A stretch of 64,000 nucleotides of DNA, taken from Salmo salar. Taxonomy: Eukaryota. The first letter of the stretch is position 1, and each line of letters starts with the position of its first letter. The stretch is taken from positions 3,047,803 through 3,111,802 of the forward strand of contig NC_059464.1 in the NCBI RefSeq assembly GCF_905237065.1. The letters run 5' to 3'. Below the pieces are notes generated by a model. It searched no databases, was not told the origin of the DNA, and worked only from the letters and a program-made list of their open reading frames with translations. This document shows, in pieces, positions 14,641-18,349 of this stretch. Both the position numbers and the translations under genes were made by a program.

Positions 14641-15285
14641 CTGAGAAAAGGTTCCTAGCTGAAGCCACTGTAGCTGCGTCACGTCCTGACCAGAAAAGGG
14701 GTCATTTTGTTATTGTAGTTGGTCAGGACGTGGTAGGAGTGTGTTTGTTTTGTGTGGTTTTTTTTGGGGGGGGGGGGGGTTATGATCTATGTTAATATAT
14801 TTCTATGTTTGTTCTAGTTCTTATATTTCTATGTTTTGTTTATTGGGCTGACCTTCAATTGGAGGCAGCTGTTCCTCGTTGCCTCTAATTGAAGGTCCTA
14901 TTTAGTAGGGGTGTTTTTTCCATGGGTTTTGGTGGGTAGTTGTTCCTTGTATAGTCAGAGCACCTTACAGGACTGTTTTTCGTAGTTGTTTTTTGTTTAA
15001 GTGGTTTGCTTTGGTTCCCTTCTTAATAAAGAAGATGAGTATTCATATACCCGCTGCATTTTGGTCCCATTCTTACGACGCATCTGACAGAACTACCCAC
15101 CAACAACGGACCAAGCAGCGGAGGAAGGAGCAGCAGAGGTATTTGGAGTCGTGGACATGGGAGGAAATTTTGGACGGGGCAGGACCATGGCACCAGGCTG
15201 GGGAGTACCAACGCCCTAAGGAGGAGCTGGAGGCAGCCAAGGCGGAGCGGCGCCATTACGAGGCGTTATACGCACGGATTGGCGA

Positions 15286-16200
15286 GTGCGAGAGGCAGCC
15301 CCCCCAAAAAATTGTGGGGGGGGGCACACGGGTAGTATGGCTAAGTCAGGTCGTAGACCTGAGCCAACTCCCCGTGCTTATTATGGGGAGCAACGGATCA
15401 TGAAAGCACCGAGCTATGCGGAAATGCGCACTATATTGCCCAGAAGCATTCAAAGGCCGGTGCGATTGGTTAAAGCTCCTCAGTATAGCCAGGCGAAGTT
15501 TAGCACTCAGCCAGGAAGGGTTGTGCAGGCTGTATGCTCCAGACCTCCAGTGCGTCTCCAGGGTCCAGTTTACCCTGTTCCTGCTCCTCGCACTAGCCTT
15601 GAGGTGCGTGTCCCTAGTCTGGCGCCTCCAAAGCCAGCCCCACGCACCAGGCCTTTAGTGCGCCTGCCCAGTCCAGTACGTCCTGTTCCTGCTCCTCGCA
15701 CTAGCCTTGAGGTGCGTGTTACCAGTCTGGCGCCTCCAAAGCCAGCCCCACGCACCAGGCCTGTAGTGCGTCAGCCCAGTCCAGTACGTCCTGTTCCTGC
15801 TCAGCGCACTAGCCAAGAGGGGGGTGTCCCTGGTCTGGTGCCTCCAAAGCCAGCCCCACGCACCAGGCCTTTAGTGCGCCTGCCCAGTCCAGTATGTCCT
15901 GTTCCTGCTCCTCGCACTAGCCCTGTGGTGCGTGTTCCTGGTCTGGCGCCTCCAAAGCCGGCCCCACGCACCAGGCCTTTAGTGCGCCTGCCCAGTCCAG
16001 TACGTCCTGTTCCTGCTCCTCGCACTAGCCCTGTGGTGTGTGTCCCTAGTCTGGTGCCTCCAAAGCCAGCCCCACGCACTAGGCCTTATGTGCGCCTGTA
16101 CAGTCCGGAACCGACAGAGACGGCCTACAGTCCGGAACCGACAGAGACGGCCCTCCAGTCCGGAACCGACAGAGACGGCCCTCCAGTCCGGAGCCGATAG
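15286..16200 (+). repeat. Internal minisatellites of the LTR element; the long proline-rich ORF is probably not a host gene
   Basis: A roughly 120-bp unit (CCAGTCCAGTACGTCCTGTTCCTGCTCCTCGCACTAGCC...CCAAAGCCAGCCCCACGCACCAGGCCT) repeats about 4.5 times over 15540-16080. It is followed over 16090-16260 by about six copies of the 27-bp unit CAGTCCGGAACCGACAGAGACGGCCCT. The 304-aa ORF reads PAPRTRPLVRLPSPVRPVPAPRTS... repeatedly. Confidence 0.6.
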
Positions 16201-16548
16201 AGACGGCCCTCCAGTCCGGAACCGACAGAGACGGCCCTCCAGTCCGGAACCGGCGCAGCCAGAGTCGCCCTCCAGTCCGGAGCTCCCAGAGTCGTGCCTC
16301 AGCCCGAGGTCTCCAGCGACGCGCCTCAGCCCGAGGTCTCCAGCGACGCGCCTTAGCCCTGAGCCTTCAGCGGGGGTGGACAGGTTAGGTTGGGGACTAG
16401 GGCCAGAACCAGAGCCACCTCCGTAGGGGGGAGTATTGGGGAAGGGGGGTGTTTGCACAGGAACTGTCGGTGACGGTGGCCACCCTCCCTTCCCTCCCTG
16501 TAGTTTTGGGGTTTTGTTGTGGGGTTTTTGTTTGTGTCTTATGGTTAA

Positions 16549-17645
16549 CCCTTTCACACGTACAATCACACGGGGTGTGATCATTCTACAGTGGTCCCTG
16601 AAGCGTACGATCACACCCTGTGTGATTAGAACACTCATTTAGAACGGCCAGTTTCGAATGACGCAACAATCAACATTTGAGCTGGCCACACTTTTTTCAG
16701 AAACTATTTACACAAACACAGTCCTTACAAAGTTATGTCCAGAATGTGAGCAGTTTATTTTTGGATGCAATGTTCAGATATTCACAGAAGTATCTATAGC
16801 ATAACACAATCATCCTAACCGGAAAAATGTAGGCTACATTTGTCCTAGCGCTGAGGAAAGATTGACGCAACACAAGCGGTCATATTTTCTAACTATCGGC
16901 TGACATAAACTACACTATGAATTAGCTAATAGCAATTACTATGTACAATTAATCACATCACGGGTGAGCTCACCGTTGATCAAAATAATTGAGTAAAACA
17001 CTTTCTAGAAATCGAAAGTAATCCGACGATTAGTTTCAGCGCGCAGCCATGCATTTTTTCCTCACAGAAACCGAAGATAATAAGAGAAGACAAGATGAGT
17101 TGTTGAAGGGGTGTGGTCTACCATCATTCACATCCCACATTCACTTCCTGAAGTTCTCAAAAAATGAGTGAACCCTTACTCACCTCATTTTGTTATAGCA
17201 TCTTTGGTCCGACAGACGATCAAGTGAAACCCAGAATGCATTGTATGTCAACAAACATGGCTCCATACACAAAGCTGGAATTAGCTTAGCTCATCATAAT
17301 CAGTACAACCTTCAAAACATTATTTTACACACATACTATGCGCCCTTTACAATTTATGCAAAAATCGGAATGCATGATTTATCACGGGTAATTGAAAAAC
17401 GTAAATAAAATAGTAAATATATCAATAATACCACACAAAACATTTTCTGATAGTGATTTATTGATACAAATTGCGCGTTTAGGCAGTCAATCACGGTAAC
17501 CTCTCACTCCCACTCTGAGCCATTCAGTGTTGTTGTTTATGTAACAATCACATCCTGGAATGGAGAGAACGTTCGAACATCACGTGCATAAAAAAACTCA
17601 CGCTGGGGCGACCGTTAGAGATATTTGGAACTCACGCGTGAAAGG
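16549..17645. mobile_element. Non-autonomous piggyBac-like (TTAA-target) element nested in the LTR element
   Basis: The termini are TTAA|CCCTTTCACACGTACAATCACACGGGGTGTGATC and ...CTCACGCGTGAAAGGG|TTAA, giving a 13-bp TIR with one mismatch. TTAA is present on both flanks (16545-16548 and 17646-17649). A subterminal inverted repeat ACACGGGGTGTGATC / GATCACACCCTGTGTGA is also present. No transposase-like ORF was found. Confidence 0.55.
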
Positions 17646-18349
17646 GTTAAGGTGCATTCGGTGTCTGCACCTTTGGGGGAGGGTACTGTCACGTCCTGAC
17701 CAGAAAAGGGTCATTTTGTTATTGTAGTTGGTCAGGACGTGGCAGGGGTGTGTTTGTTTTGTGTGTTTCGGGGTTTTTTGGGTTATGATCTATGTTAATA
17801 TATTTCTATGTTTTGTTTATTGGGCTGACCTTCAATTGGAGGCAGCTGTTCCTCATTGCCTCTAATTGAAGGTCCTATTTAGTAGGGGTGTTTTTTCCAT
17901 GGGTTTTGGTGGGTAGTTGTTCCTTGTATAGTCAGAGCACCTTACAGGACTGTTTTTCGTAGTTGTTTTTTGTTTAAGTGGTTTGTTTTGGTTCCCTTCT
18001 TAATAAAGAAAATGAGTATTCATATACTCGCTGCATTTTGGTTCCATTCTTACGACGCACCTGACAAGCTGAGAGGAGAGTAAACTGAATCCTACGGTTG
18101 GCTTAAAAATAATACAGCAAACAATGTGTCACTTTTGGGTTTTATAAGAGAAAAACCAACATGGCCTCAGGTTTTAATAGAACCTGTGTGTATTACATGG
18201 CTCTCCAGATCAGAGGGAGAGAGAGATAAAGAGGGAGAAAGAGGGAACAGAATGGAGGAGAGTGGCTGAAGATCAAAAAAACAAAAAGCAGCACCTCAGG
18301 AACCCTGATACAATCCCTTTGGTGTGCAGGGAGTGGAAGAAAGGAGGGA

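What the first reader, a model, noticed from the sequence alone, without database searches (positions are those of the whole stretch)
14672..18071. Complete non-autonomous LTR retroelement with a 5-bp target-site duplication and an internal proline-rich minisatellite ORF, but no gag or pol
Direct repeats of about 400 bp (TGTCACGTCCTGACC...CTGACA, TG..CA termini) flank a 2.6-kb internal region. The identical pentamer AGCTG sits immediately outside both repeats, which is a strong signature of a single integration event. A purine tract precedes the 3' repeat. The internal region has no reverse transcriptase or integrase. Instead it carries a 120-bp x 4.5 and a 27-bp x 6 tandem array read as one 304-aa P/R/V-rich ORF, and it also carries a nested TTAA element. 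This looks like a LARD/TRIM-type element mobilised in trans, or a heavily deleted ERV. The roughly 95% LTR identity suggests a relatively recent insertion.
Basis: seen in the sequence. Interest (0 to 1): 0.55.

Follow-up and report, generated by a model that had tools for sequence, protein, structure and literature searches.

The report
Pol-less self-priming salmonid LTR retroelement
This is a dead copy of a small salmonid retrotransposon that has no reverse transcriptase, appears to start its own copying by folding its RNA back on itself as Tf1/sushi elements do, and carries a conserved gene of unknown function, so it most likely depends on a neighbouring chromovirus family to move.

Summary
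LTRs are 14677-15089 (413 bp) and 17687-18066 (380 bp), 95.8% identical. An exact 5-bp AGCTG duplication flanks them, and a purine tract and a nested TTAA/TIR element are present. The tandem periods are 108, 28 and 27 bp, not 120 and 27.

The element has no pol, but it is not TRIM, LARD or an ERV. It belongs to a salmonid family of 2.3-3.0 kb elements. Seven complete copies have 5-bp duplications, and some charr copies have 99-100% identical LTRs.

There is no tRNA-type primer site. Instead, the 10 nt just after the 5' LTR are complementary to an LTR site about 30 nt downstream of a TATA-like box. The variable bases covary in 10 of 11 copies, which is the Tf1/sushi self-priming signature.

A complete Coregonus chromovirus (gag, RT, RNase H, IN, chromodomain) has near-identical primer, primer-binding and purine-tract/LTR-end motifs, making this group the likely helper.

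The "minisatellite ORF" starts at an ATG inside the 5' LTR and is under purifying selection (dN/dS about 0.3; about 1.3 in shifted frames). It is basic, mostly disordered and matches no known family. The window copy is frameshifted and interrupted.

The parts
14672..14676 (.). 5' target-site duplication AGCTG
   Evidence: Identical pentamer at 18067-18071. Six other complete family copies also carry 5-bp duplications.
14677..15089 (+). 5' LTR (413 bp; CGTCACG...CTGACA)
   Evidence: Aligns with 17687-18066 at 95.8% identity. Its ends fit the Sushi/rGmr1 motifs TGTYANR...CNTNACA listed in PMC3601003.
14680..14732 (+). Conserved inverted repeat at the start of U3 (CACGTCCTGACCA ... TGGTCAGGACGTG); role unknown
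   Evidence: Both arms are present in all 8 family LTRs examined. No compensatory changes were seen.
14899..14905 (+). TATA-like box TATTTAG (inferred promoter)
   Evidence: A TATTTAG, TACTTAG or TACATAG motif lies about 31-33 nt upstream of the self-primer site in 9 of the 11 copies where that site was located. The transcription start was not measured.
14932..14941 (+). Self-primer site GTGGGTAGTT (inferred 5' end of the transcript, start of R). Perfect complementarity to the post-LTR sequence extends over 14929-14941.
   Evidence: 13-nt perfect reverse complement of 15091-15103, reached by 0 of 500 shuffles. Covaries with the primer-binding site across 11 copies.
15025..15030 (+). AATAAA polyadenylation signal in the LTR (3' LTR copy at 18002-18007)
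   Evidence: Present 7-11 nt upstream of the ORF start codon (ATG) in the five complete copies examined. PMC3601003 notes that AATAAA lies close to the 3' end of Sushi LTRs.
15091..15100 (+). Primer-binding site AACTACCCAC, one base after the 5' LTR and inside the ORF (codons R-T-T-H)
   Evidence: Complementary to 14932-14941. 99.1% of cells pair, 3 of 10 pairs change on both sides and none on one side only, and 0 of 500 shuffles reach the covariation score. Minimum-energy folds of R-U5-PBS close with this helix in 5 of 5 copies.
15035..15403 (+). First part of the element's ORF (122 aa; MSIHIPAAFWS...WTWEEILDGAGPW...). It starts in the LTR and goes out of frame in the homopolymer runs at about 15300-15326.
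   Evidence: Homologous to salmonid proteins.
15286..16200 (+). It holds the conserved GGGHTGS..RPEPTPRAY stretch and then Pro/Arg-rich repeats.
15574..16106 (+). 108-bp x 4.9 tandem array (36-aa Pro/Arg-rich repeat in the ORF)
   Evidence: 90% matches.
16101..16372 (+). 28-bp x 5.5 (16101-16252) and 27-bp x 3.7 (16259-16372) minisatellites. In intact relatives the 27-bp unit encodes 9-aa repeats.
   Evidence: Relatives: L001 has 16-22 units of 27 bp, and in L005a the repeats lie within a 708-aa ORF.
16545..17650 (.). Nested non-autonomous piggyBac-type element: TTAA, 13-bp inverted repeats CCCTTTCACACGT/ACGCGTGAAAGGG, TTAA
   Evidence: ORFs overlapping the insert that were scanned have no Pfam match. 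No second copy in about 340 kb of salmonid sequence held.
17651..17671 (+). Possible hairpin GGTGCA..TGCACC just 5' of the purine tract
   Evidence: A stem is possible in 7 of 7 family copies, but covariation is weak: 29 of 500 shuffles reach the observed score.
17675..17686 (+). Polypurine tract GGGGGAGGG plus TAC, abutting the 3' LTR
   Evidence: Family copies and salmonid chromoviruses share ...GGGGGGGG(T)AC|TGTCAC.
17687..18066 (+). 3' LTR (380 bp; TGTCACG...CTGACA)
18067..18071 (.). 3' target-site duplication AGCTG

Best explanation
The region is one decayed insertion of a salmonid-specific, pol-less LTR retrotransposon family that most likely replicates by parasitising Ty3/gypsy chromoviruses of the Tf1/sushi group.

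Inferred cycle:
1. RNA polymerase II starts about 30 nt downstream of the LTR's TATA-like box, so the transcript begins with GUGGGUAGUU.
2. This 5' end folds back onto the complementary 10 nt that start one base after the 5' LTR.
3. As shown for Tf1, an RNase H cut then turns the element's own 5' end into the minus-strand primer.
4. The G-rich purine tract primes the plus strand.
5. A chromoviral integrase recognises the TGTCAC...GTNACA ends and inserts the DNA with a 5-bp duplication.

RT, RNase H, integrase and capsid must come in trans, because the element encodes none of them. It does encode its own protein. The ORF starts at an ATG in R/U5 just after AATAAA and reads through the primer-binding site. 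It has a conserved N-terminal domain with one confident helix, followed by a very basic Pro/Arg-rich repetitive tail. Its role is unknown; helping the element's RNA get into the helper's particles is a guess.

The window copy is dead. Its ORF is frameshifted, a TTAA-type DNA transposon has landed in its 3' region, and its LTRs have diverged by about 2.5-4%.

Shown here: the structure, the family, the duplications, the primer/PBS complementarity and covariation, the coding constraint, the absence of pol, and the shared motifs with a chromovirus. Inferred: the transcription start, the RNase H cut, the identity of the helper and the protein's function.
For: Structure of the window copy.

Family. 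Seven complete copies of 2.27-3.39 kb were found in the window, Salvelinus fontinalis, S. alpinus and Oncorhynchus nerka. Their 5-bp duplications are AGCTG, TGATT, GCTTC, CTATC, AATTC and GTTGG (all exact) and TATGT/CATGT (4 of 5). LTR identity reaches 100%, 99.8%, 99.4% and 99% in charr copies.

No pol anywhere. Pfam finds nothing. An exhaustive profile search of 1.84 billion proteins gave 193 hits, and the best 150 are all 432 aa or shorter.

Self-priming. The window has a 13-nt perfect complement, reached by 0 of 500 shuffles. In 10 of 11 copies the 10-bp helix is perfect, across six different variants of the three variable bases. Formally, 99.1% of cells pair, there are 10 compensatory cells and no one-sided changes, 0 of 500 shuffles reach the covariation score, and slid controls pair at 55% or less. 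Minimum-energy folds close with this helix in 5 of 5 copies. The literature states that self-priming is common to Tf1/sushi elements, including vertebrate ones (PMC10085805; PMC6317226).

Helper. A complete chromovirus lies on L132 (Coregonus), minus strand, 6678-1933, with a CGGTG duplication. It encodes Retrotrans_gag/Ty3_capsid, RVT_1, RNase H, rve and Chromo. About 31 nt after its TATA box it has TTTGTGAGTGATTGTTC, compared with TTTGTGGGTGATTGTTC in the family. Its LTR end and primer site read ACA|GAATTACTCACC, compared with ACA|GAATCACCCACC. Its primer pairs with its own PBS by 9 Watson-Crick pairs and 1 G-U pair. Chromovirus 3' ends read ...AAGGGGGGGGTAC|TGTCAC, like the family's.

ORF. 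Median dN/dS is 0.30 (range 0.21-0.42) over up to about 250 codons, against 1.31 and 1.28 in the two shifted frames. Third codon positions differ about twice as often as first and second positions.
Against: - No transcript data, so the start site, and therefore the claim that the complementary 10-mer is the RNA's 5' end, rests on TATA spacing and analogy with Tf1.
- Only one autonomous element with a 5' LTR and primer site could be examined. It is old (LTRs about 78% identical), and outside the short functional motifs there is no extended DNA similarity to the family.
- One family copy (L001) has a mismatch in the helix.
- Three copies (window, L005b, L130a) share a frame break near a poly-G run. 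Two of these have 99-99.4% identical LTRs, so an intact ORF in cis may not be required.
- The protein has no recognisable fold or family.
- The dN/dS alignment was guided by the translated frame, which biases slightly in favour of that frame.
Confidence: 0.82

Rival explanations
1. A heavily deleted endogenous retrovirus: an ERV that lost gag, pol and env by internal deletion and kept only its LTRs and some filler sequence.
For: LTRs, a 5-bp duplication, a purine tract and no pol are all compatible with this.
Against: There is no TGG-initiated tRNA primer site after the LTR. The primer/PBS system, the LTR ends and the purine-tract junction match a Ty3/gypsy chromovirus. The same 2.3-3 kb architecture with the same ORF recurs in diverged subfamilies under coding selection, so it is not a one-off deletion. 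No gag, pol or env remnant was found by Pfam.
Confidence: 0.03
2. A LARD or TRIM element in the strict sense: a non-coding internal domain between LTRs, with the ORF being an accident of GC-rich tandem repeats.
For: There is no gag or pol. Long ORFs also appear in other frames and on the other strand across the repeats, which shows that composition alone can create ORFs there.
Against: The non-repetitive N-terminal 140-250 codons have dN/dS of 0.21-0.42 in the real frame, against about 1.3 in shifted frames. The ATG position after AATAAA is conserved. Size and LTR length fit neither the TRIM nor the LARD definition.
Confidence: 0.05
3. The ORF is a host gene fragment captured (transduced) by a chromovirus-derived vector. 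On this view the protein matters to the host or is a passenger, and is not a retrotransposition factor.
For: The protein is unrelated to chromoviral Gag and to any Pfam or PDB family. LTR retroelements are known to capture cellular sequences (general knowledge).
Against: All 193 detectable relatives are short, and the named hits in the first search are all salmonid and mostly 'uncharacterized'; those examined lie inside LTR-bounded copies, and no distinct host parent gene was seen. The ORF starts inside the LTR and overlaps the primer-binding site, and it diverges with the subfamilies while staying under selection.
Confidence: 0.12
4. Conventional tRNA or tRNA-half priming, with the LTR complementarity being a by-product.
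For: The post-LTR sequence ...ACCCACCA looks superficially like a tRNA 3' end. However, it has the same polarity as a tRNA, not the complementary one.
Against: A tRNA primer site must begin with TGG on the plus strand, and none is present. The variable bases covary with the LTR site in six variants, which a fixed host tRNA cannot explain.
Confidence: 0.02

Closest known systems
Tf1/sushi group chromoviruses (Tf1 and Tf2 of S. pombe; sushi-ichi of Takifugu; salmonid copies such as L132 minus strand 6678-1933)
   Same: - A primer-binding site complementary to the 5' end of R rather than to a tRNA.
- 5-bp duplications.
- LTR ends TGTYANR...CNTNACA.
- AATAAA close to the LTR 3' end.
- A G-rich purine tract followed by TAC|TGTCAC.
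- Primer and PBS motifs nearly identical to those of a Coregonus chromovirus.
   Different: The family has no gag, protease, RT, RNase H, integrase or chromodomain. The ORF starts upstream of the PBS, inside the LTR, and encodes an unrelated protein. Total length is only 2.3-3 kb.
Non-autonomous LTR retrotransposons of plants (TRIM, LARD; also BARE2-type elements, from general knowledge)
   Same: LTR-bounded and lacking pol, they depend on an autonomous partner whose cis signals they keep.
   Different: TRIM and LARD are non-coding, and this element falls outside their size ranges. BARE2-type elements keep a recognisable partner gag. Here the protein is unrelated to the partner's Gag and is under its own purifying selection. 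The host is a vertebrate.
Animal TRIM-like elements (ants, cestodes, honey bee, bivalves; PMC6934838)
   Same: Rare reports of short non-autonomous LTR elements in animals, some also without a tRNA-type primer site.
   Different: Those are sub-kilobase and non-coding, and no priming mechanism could be proposed for them. Here the self-primer is identified and it covaries.
piggyBac-type MITEs (for the nested insert)
   Same: TTAA duplication and 13-bp terminal inverted repeats beginning CCC and ending GGG. The ORFs scanned show no transposase match.
   Different: No other copy or parent transposase with the same ends was found in the sequence available.

Membership tests
LTR retrotransposon (structural definition) | Two long direct terminal repeats with TG..CA ends | tested here: met
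   413-bp and 380-bp LTRs, 95.8% identical. The 3' LTR reads TG..CA. The 5' LTR has a T>C change at base 1.
LTR retrotransposon (structural definition) | Target-site duplication of fixed length | tested here: met
   AGCTG on both sides. There are 5-bp duplications in 7 of 7 complete copies, 6 of them exact.
LTR retrotransposon (structural definition) | Polypurine tract next to the 3' LTR | tested here: met
   GGGGGAGGG at 17675-17683, conserved in the family.
LTR retrotransposon (structural definition) | Primer-binding site next to the 5' LTR | tested here: met
   Not a tRNA type. It is a self-primer type, complementary to an LTR site and covarying with it.
Autonomous LTR retrotransposon | Encodes gag and pol (protease, RT, RNase H, integrase) | tested here: not met
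   No Pfam match in any ORF of the window copy or of intact relatives. The best 150 of 193 relatives of the ORF are all 432 aa or shorter.
Tf1/sushi group (chromovirus, Ty3/gypsy) | Placement by RT/IN phylogeny and a chromodomain at the integrase C-terminus | tested here: not met
   No pol and no chromodomain are present, so phylogenetic placement is impossible. The element cannot be filed as a member by the protein criterion.
Tf1/sushi group (chromovirus, Ty3/gypsy) | Self-priming: PBS complementary to the first roughly 11 nt of the transcript | tested here: inconclusive
   The complementarity and covariation are met. The transcript 5' end is not mapped and is only inferred from a TATA-like box about 31 nt upstream.
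Tf1/sushi group (chromovirus, Ty3/gypsy) | LTR end motifs TGTYANR...CNTNACA and AATAAA near the LTR 3' end (PMC3601003) | tested here: met
   TGTCACG...CCTGACA in the window and CGTTACA or CGTGACA in relatives. AATAAA begins 65 nt before the LTR end in the window and about 74-97 nt before it in four relatives.
TRIM | Very small (well under about 1.5 kb), LTRs of about 100-250 bp, no coding capacity (general knowledge and PMC6934838) | tested here: not met
   2.3-3.4 kb, LTRs of 380-498 bp, and an ORF under selection.
LARD | Large element (several kb or more) with long LTRs and a conserved non-coding internal domain (general knowledge) | tested here: not met
   The internal region is only 1.5-2.0 kb and it is coding.
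Endogenous retrovirus | tRNA-complementary PBS and remnants of gag, pol or env | tested here: not met
   No TGG-type primer site and no retroviral domains.
piggyBac-type MITE (nested insert) | TTAA duplication and short terminal inverted repeats, no transposase | tested here: met
   TTAA on both sides, 12/13 inverted repeats CCCTTTCACACGT, and no Pfam match in the ORFs scanned across the insert.
piggyBac-type MITE (nested insert) | Multiple copies, or a parent transposon with the same ends | tested here: inconclusive
   None found in about 340 kb of salmonid sequence held. No salmonid genome could be searched.

The most novel reading that the evidence does not exclude
A vertebrate LTR 'hyperparasite' may have replaced Gag-Pol with a lineage-specific, selected, basic and disordered protein of its own. 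It keeps only about 10+10 nt of self-priming signal, a purine tract and the LTR ends of its chromovirus helper, and judging from identical LTRs it is still transposing in charr. If the protein is needed for mobilisation, for example by recruiting the RNA into helper particles or countering silencing, it would be a new class of retroelement accessory or packaging factor. The primer-to-PBS copying seen as strictly two-sided covariation would also be a natural record of self-primed reverse transcription in a vertebrate.
Probability: 0.3. Interest if true: 0.65.

Novelty: new variant of a known kind. Interest (0 to 1): 0.45.

Why it matters
Non-autonomous LTR retrotransposons are well described in plants but hardly at all in vertebrates. 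Self-priming has been shown experimentally only in fission-yeast Tf1.

This family offers a compact, apparently still active vertebrate system in which the cis requirements are reduced to a few short, identifiable motifs. Natural covariation already supports the primer/PBS pairing.

It also shows that a 'P-rich minisatellite ORF', which salmonid genome annotations list as many 'uncharacterized proteins', is a transposon gene under selection. That matters for gene annotation in salmonid genomes and poses a concrete question about what the protein does.

The window copy itself is an ordinary dead insertion with no evident effect on neighbouring genes.

Tried and rejected
- Metagenome pattern scan. 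ACAGAANNACCCACCA returned 120 loci, but none is related to the family.
- Viral-contig scans with the chromovirus integrase and with the ORF profile found nothing.
- Getting a helper 5' end through protein look-ups failed three times. The copies at L004 1-3250, L131 and L132 9131-13090 are all 5'-truncated or cut by the contig end. A complete copy was then found by chance on the other strand of L132.
- Rfam search of 14000-18600 gave no match.
- Structure prediction of the protein gave mean pLDDT 54.5, with only helix 73-92 confident. Foldseek against the PDB found nothing. A PDB profile search also found nothing.
- Profile comparison with chromoviral Gag showed no similarity.
- A hairpin 5' of the purine tract was tested. 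RNAalifold preferred another fold, and covariation for my hairpin is weak at 29 of 500 shuffles. It is left as 'possible'.
- The U3 inverted repeat is conserved but shows no compensatory changes.
- Seven literature searches, including literal sequence strings, found no description of this family. Repbase and Dfam could not be consulted.
- Segmental duplication and chance repeats were rejected, because similarity ends exactly at the LTR borders.
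Full report
**Observation**

- The LTRs are 14677-15089 (413 bp) and 17687-18066 (380 bp).
- They are 95.8% identical over 380 aligned bases. The 16 differences are 9 transitions plus 7 transversions, and the transversions are all confined to one G/T homopolymer patch. There are also indels of 1, 6 and 26 bp.
- The 3' LTR reads TGTCACG...CCTGACA. The first base of the 5' LTR has changed to C.
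- AGCTG lies immediately outside both LTRs (14672-14676 and 18067-18071), and similarity does not extend beyond it.
- GGGGGAGGG followed by TAC precedes the 3' LTR.
- A TTAA-flanked insert with 13-bp inverted ends occupies 16545-17650.
- The tandem arrays are 108 bp x 4.9, 28 bp x 5.5 and 27 bp x 3.7, not 120 and 27 bp.
- No ORF in the region matches RT, integrase or any other Pfam family.

**A family, not a one-off**

The translated ORF finds 89 proteins. All the named ones come from Salvelinus, Oncorhynchus or Salmo; most are labelled 'uncharacterized', and none exceeds 350 aa. A few carry unrelated Pfam domains (claudin, Ras, Tc1 transposase DDE), which I read as chimeric gene predictions.

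Fetching the DNA around several of them gave six more complete elements:
- L001 5681-8168
- L004 7591-10261
- L005 7611-10582
- L005 4803-7252, minus strand
- L128 9686-12015
- L130 6538-8809

All are 2.27-2.97 kb and begin TGTCAC or TGTAAC. Five end GTGACA or GTTACA; the L128 copy ends CTTCACA. All have a G-rich purine tract before the 3' LTR. Their 5-bp duplications are TGATT, GCTTC, CTATC, AATTC and GTTGG (exact) and TATGT/CATGT. LTR pairs are 100%, 99.8%, 99.4%, 99%, 98.5% and 98.2% identical, so the family has been active very recently in charr. None has pol.

An exhaustive HMMER profile search of 1.84 billion representative proteins with the N-terminal domain found 193 relatives. The best 150 are all 432 aa or shorter. 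On record, therefore, this domain is never fused to a polyprotein.

**Priming**

The sequence after the 5' LTR (GAACTACCCACCAAC) cannot be a tRNA-type primer site, because it does not begin with TGG.

It is instead the perfect reverse complement of TTGGTGGGTAGTT inside the LTR (14929-14941). No shuffle out of 500 reached a 13-nt match.

The same relation holds at the homologous position in the other copies, and the three variable bases change together:

| LTR site | Post-LTR site | Copies |
|---|---|---|
| GTGGGTAGTT | AACTACCCAC | window |
| GTGGGAAGTT | AACTTCCCAC | L002 |
| GTGGGTTATT | AATAACCCAC | L003 |
| GTGGGTGATT | AATCACCCAC | L004, L127, L128, L130b |
| GTGGGTGGTT | AACCACCCAC | L005a |
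| GTGGGTGTTT | AAACACCCAC | L005b, L130a |

Only L001 has one mismatch.

Counted formally:
- 99.1% of cells pair.
- Three of the ten pairs vary, and they vary only by two-sided changes (10 cells).
- No shuffle out of 500 reaches the covariation score.
- Sliding the partner by 1-3 columns drops pairing to 33-55%.

In 9 of the 11 copies the LTR site lies about 31-33 nt downstream of a TATA-like box (TATTTAG, TACTTAG or TACATAG). Minimum-energy folds from that site to the post-LTR sequence close with this helix in all five copies folded.

This is the arrangement described for Tf1. There the first 11 nt of the mRNA pair with the primer-binding site and serve as the primer. The literature treats this as a shared trait of Tf1/sushi elements, including vertebrate ones (PMC10085805; PMC6317226).

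Plus-strand strong-stop synthesis copies the primer to regenerate the primer-binding site, as in the established reverse-transcription model. A change in the primer is therefore expected to be transferred to the primer-binding site within one cycle. That would explain the absence of one-sided changes. This last step is inference.

**The likely helper**

Salmonid loci fetched for other reasons contain chromovirus 3' ends with the junction ...AAGGGGGGGGTAC|TGTCAC, the same as in the family.

One complete chromovirus lies on the minus strand of L132 (Coregonus suidteri), 6678-1933.
- It has a CGGTG duplication.
- Its ORFs match Retrotrans_gag/Ty3_capsid, RVT_1, RNase H, rve and Chromo.
- About 31 nt after TGTATAAG, its LTR has TTTGTGAGTGATTGTTC. 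The family has TTTGTGGGTGATTGTTC.
- Its LTR ends ...CATCACA and is followed by GAATTACTCACC. The family has ...ACA|GAATCACCCACC.
- Its primer pairs with its own primer-binding site by nine Watson-Crick pairs and one G-U pair. The diverged 3' LTR copy differs at another position. This suggests that the ancestral site was GTGAGTAATT, a perfect complement.

Local alignment between this chromovirus and family LTRs picks out these two functional sites in seven of the nine comparisons and little else.

The family therefore keeps the cis signals of a Tf1/sushi-type chromovirus and nothing of its coding sequence. Which living chromovirus subfamily actually mobilises it was not determined.

**The ORF**

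In intact relatives the ORF starts at an ATG 7-11 nt after the LTR's AATAAA. It runs through U5 and through the primer-binding site (codons R-T/I/N-T/S-H). It continues for 260-708 aa, and in L005a it runs into the 3' LTR.

The N-terminal roughly 140 residues are non-repetitive (…AAFWSD…RTTHHQRTKQRG…WTWEEILDGKGPWAQPGEYRRPKEELEAAKAERR…RPEPTPRAY…). The rest consists of Pro/Arg-rich 18/36-aa repeats and 9-aa repeats encoded by the 54/108-bp and 27-bp arrays.

Evidence that it is a real gene under purifying selection:
- Between subfamilies, dN/dS is 0.21-0.42 (median 0.30) over up to about 250 codons.
- The same alignments read in the two other frames give 1.31 and 1.28.
- Third codon positions differ about twice as often as first and second positions.

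What the protein looks like:
- Its pI is about 10.9, with 14% Pro and 13% Arg.
- It is predicted to be disordered except for one confident helix (mean pLDDT 54.5).
- It matches nothing in Pfam, the PDB by sequence or by fold, or chromoviral Gag.

Its function is unknown.

In the window copy the frame breaks in the C/A/G homopolymer runs at about 15300-15326.

**State and age of the window copy**

The ORF is frameshifted. The 28-bp array is out of frame. A 1.1-kb TTAA-type element sits about 25 nt upstream of the purine tract. The LTRs differ by 2.4% outside the homopolymer patch, or 4.3% (K2P) overall. It is an old, inactive insertion. I give no date because I have no calibrated salmonid substitution rate from these tools.

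The surrounding window is ordinary salmonid-type sequence. It contains a LINE RT fragment, a Tc1 transposase fragment, C2H2 zinc-finger ORFs and microsatellites.

**Classification and novelty**

Mechanistically the element works like a Tf1/sushi chromovirus that has been stripped of its proteins. It cannot be filed as a member of that group by the defining protein criteria. It fails the definitions of TRIM and LARD on size and on coding. It fails the ERV definition on primer type and on the absence of retroviral remnants.

The best description is a non-autonomous, self-priming, ORF-bearing LTR retrotransposon family of salmonids, that is, a new variant of a known kind.

I found no description of it in the searchable literature. 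Repeat libraries such as Repbase and Dfam, which very probably hold its consensus, could not be checked.

**Main caveats**
- The transcription start is not mapped.
- Only one helper copy with a 5' end was examined.
- The sample is 11 copies.
- The role of the protein is unknown.
- Two young copies share a frame break, which questions whether the ORF is needed in cis.

Noticed in passing
window 15300-15326; L005 minus-strand copy (4803-7252); L130 6538-8809: Three of 12 family copies (the window, L005b and L130a) have the same frame break, 2 nt out of register, between the PBS codons and the RPEPTPRAY motif. It lies at or next to a poly-G run of 8-20 G. Two of these copies have 99-99.4% identical LTRs. 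This could be an indel hot spot, assembly error in homopolymers, or a subfamily that transposes without an intact ORF or by frameshifting.
   Followed up: partly
window 14680-14732 (and 17690-17741): A 13-nt inverted repeat at the very start of U3 (CACGTCCTGACCA ... TGGTCAGGACGTG, about 27 nt apart) is conserved in all family LTRs examined. Its function is unknown and no compensatory changes were seen.
   Followed up: partly
window 14796-14821: The 5' LTR carries 26 extra bases relative to the 3' LTR, flanked by the direct repeat TATATTTCTATGTTT. This looks like a slippage duplication or deletion after insertion.
   Followed up: no
window 11569-11642: ARAGORN calls a tRNA-Ala (TGC) on the plus strand, about 3 kb upstream of the element. 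It could be a real tRNA gene or a tRNA-derived SINE head.
   Followed up: no
window 13322-13798 (minus strand): An ORF matches the C-terminal part of RVT_1 plus the ALKBH8_N-type segment. I read it as a fragment of a non-LTR (LINE) retrotransposon just upstream of the element.
   Followed up: no
window 24966-25745: A Tc1/mariner transposase fragment (HTH_Tnp_Tc3_2, weak DDE_3).
   Followed up: no
window 35202-36473 and 46132-47034 (minus strand): Two ORFs with multiple C2H2 zinc fingers, possibly exons of zinc-finger genes. These are the only host-gene-like features seen in the window.
   Followed up: no
window 14559-14635 and 18681-18766: A CA/GCAC-rich microsatellite lies just upstream of the element, and a perfect (GT)43 plus long AG-rich tracts lie just downstream. 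They show up as spurious long 'inverted repeats' around the element.
   Followed up: no
L005 4803-7252 (minus) and 7611-10582 (plus): Two young family copies of different subfamilies sit head-to-head only 358 bp apart in Salvelinus alpinus. L130 also carries two copies and a chromovirus solo LTR (32012-31759, duplication AATAT). This may reflect clustering or a regional insertion preference.
   Followed up: no
L127 1-8700: About 8.7 kb of tandem repeat upstream of a family copy in Oncorhynchus masou gives very long open frames (up to 1556 aa) of SVTVSVSCLVSLSI-type units. It is a satellite, not a gene.
   Followed up: no
L128 13184-13957 (minus strand): A piggyBac-type transposase fragment (DDE_Tnp_1_7) in Oncorhynchus nerka shows that the superfamily is present in salmonids. 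No similarity to the window's nested TTAA element was found.
   Followed up: partly
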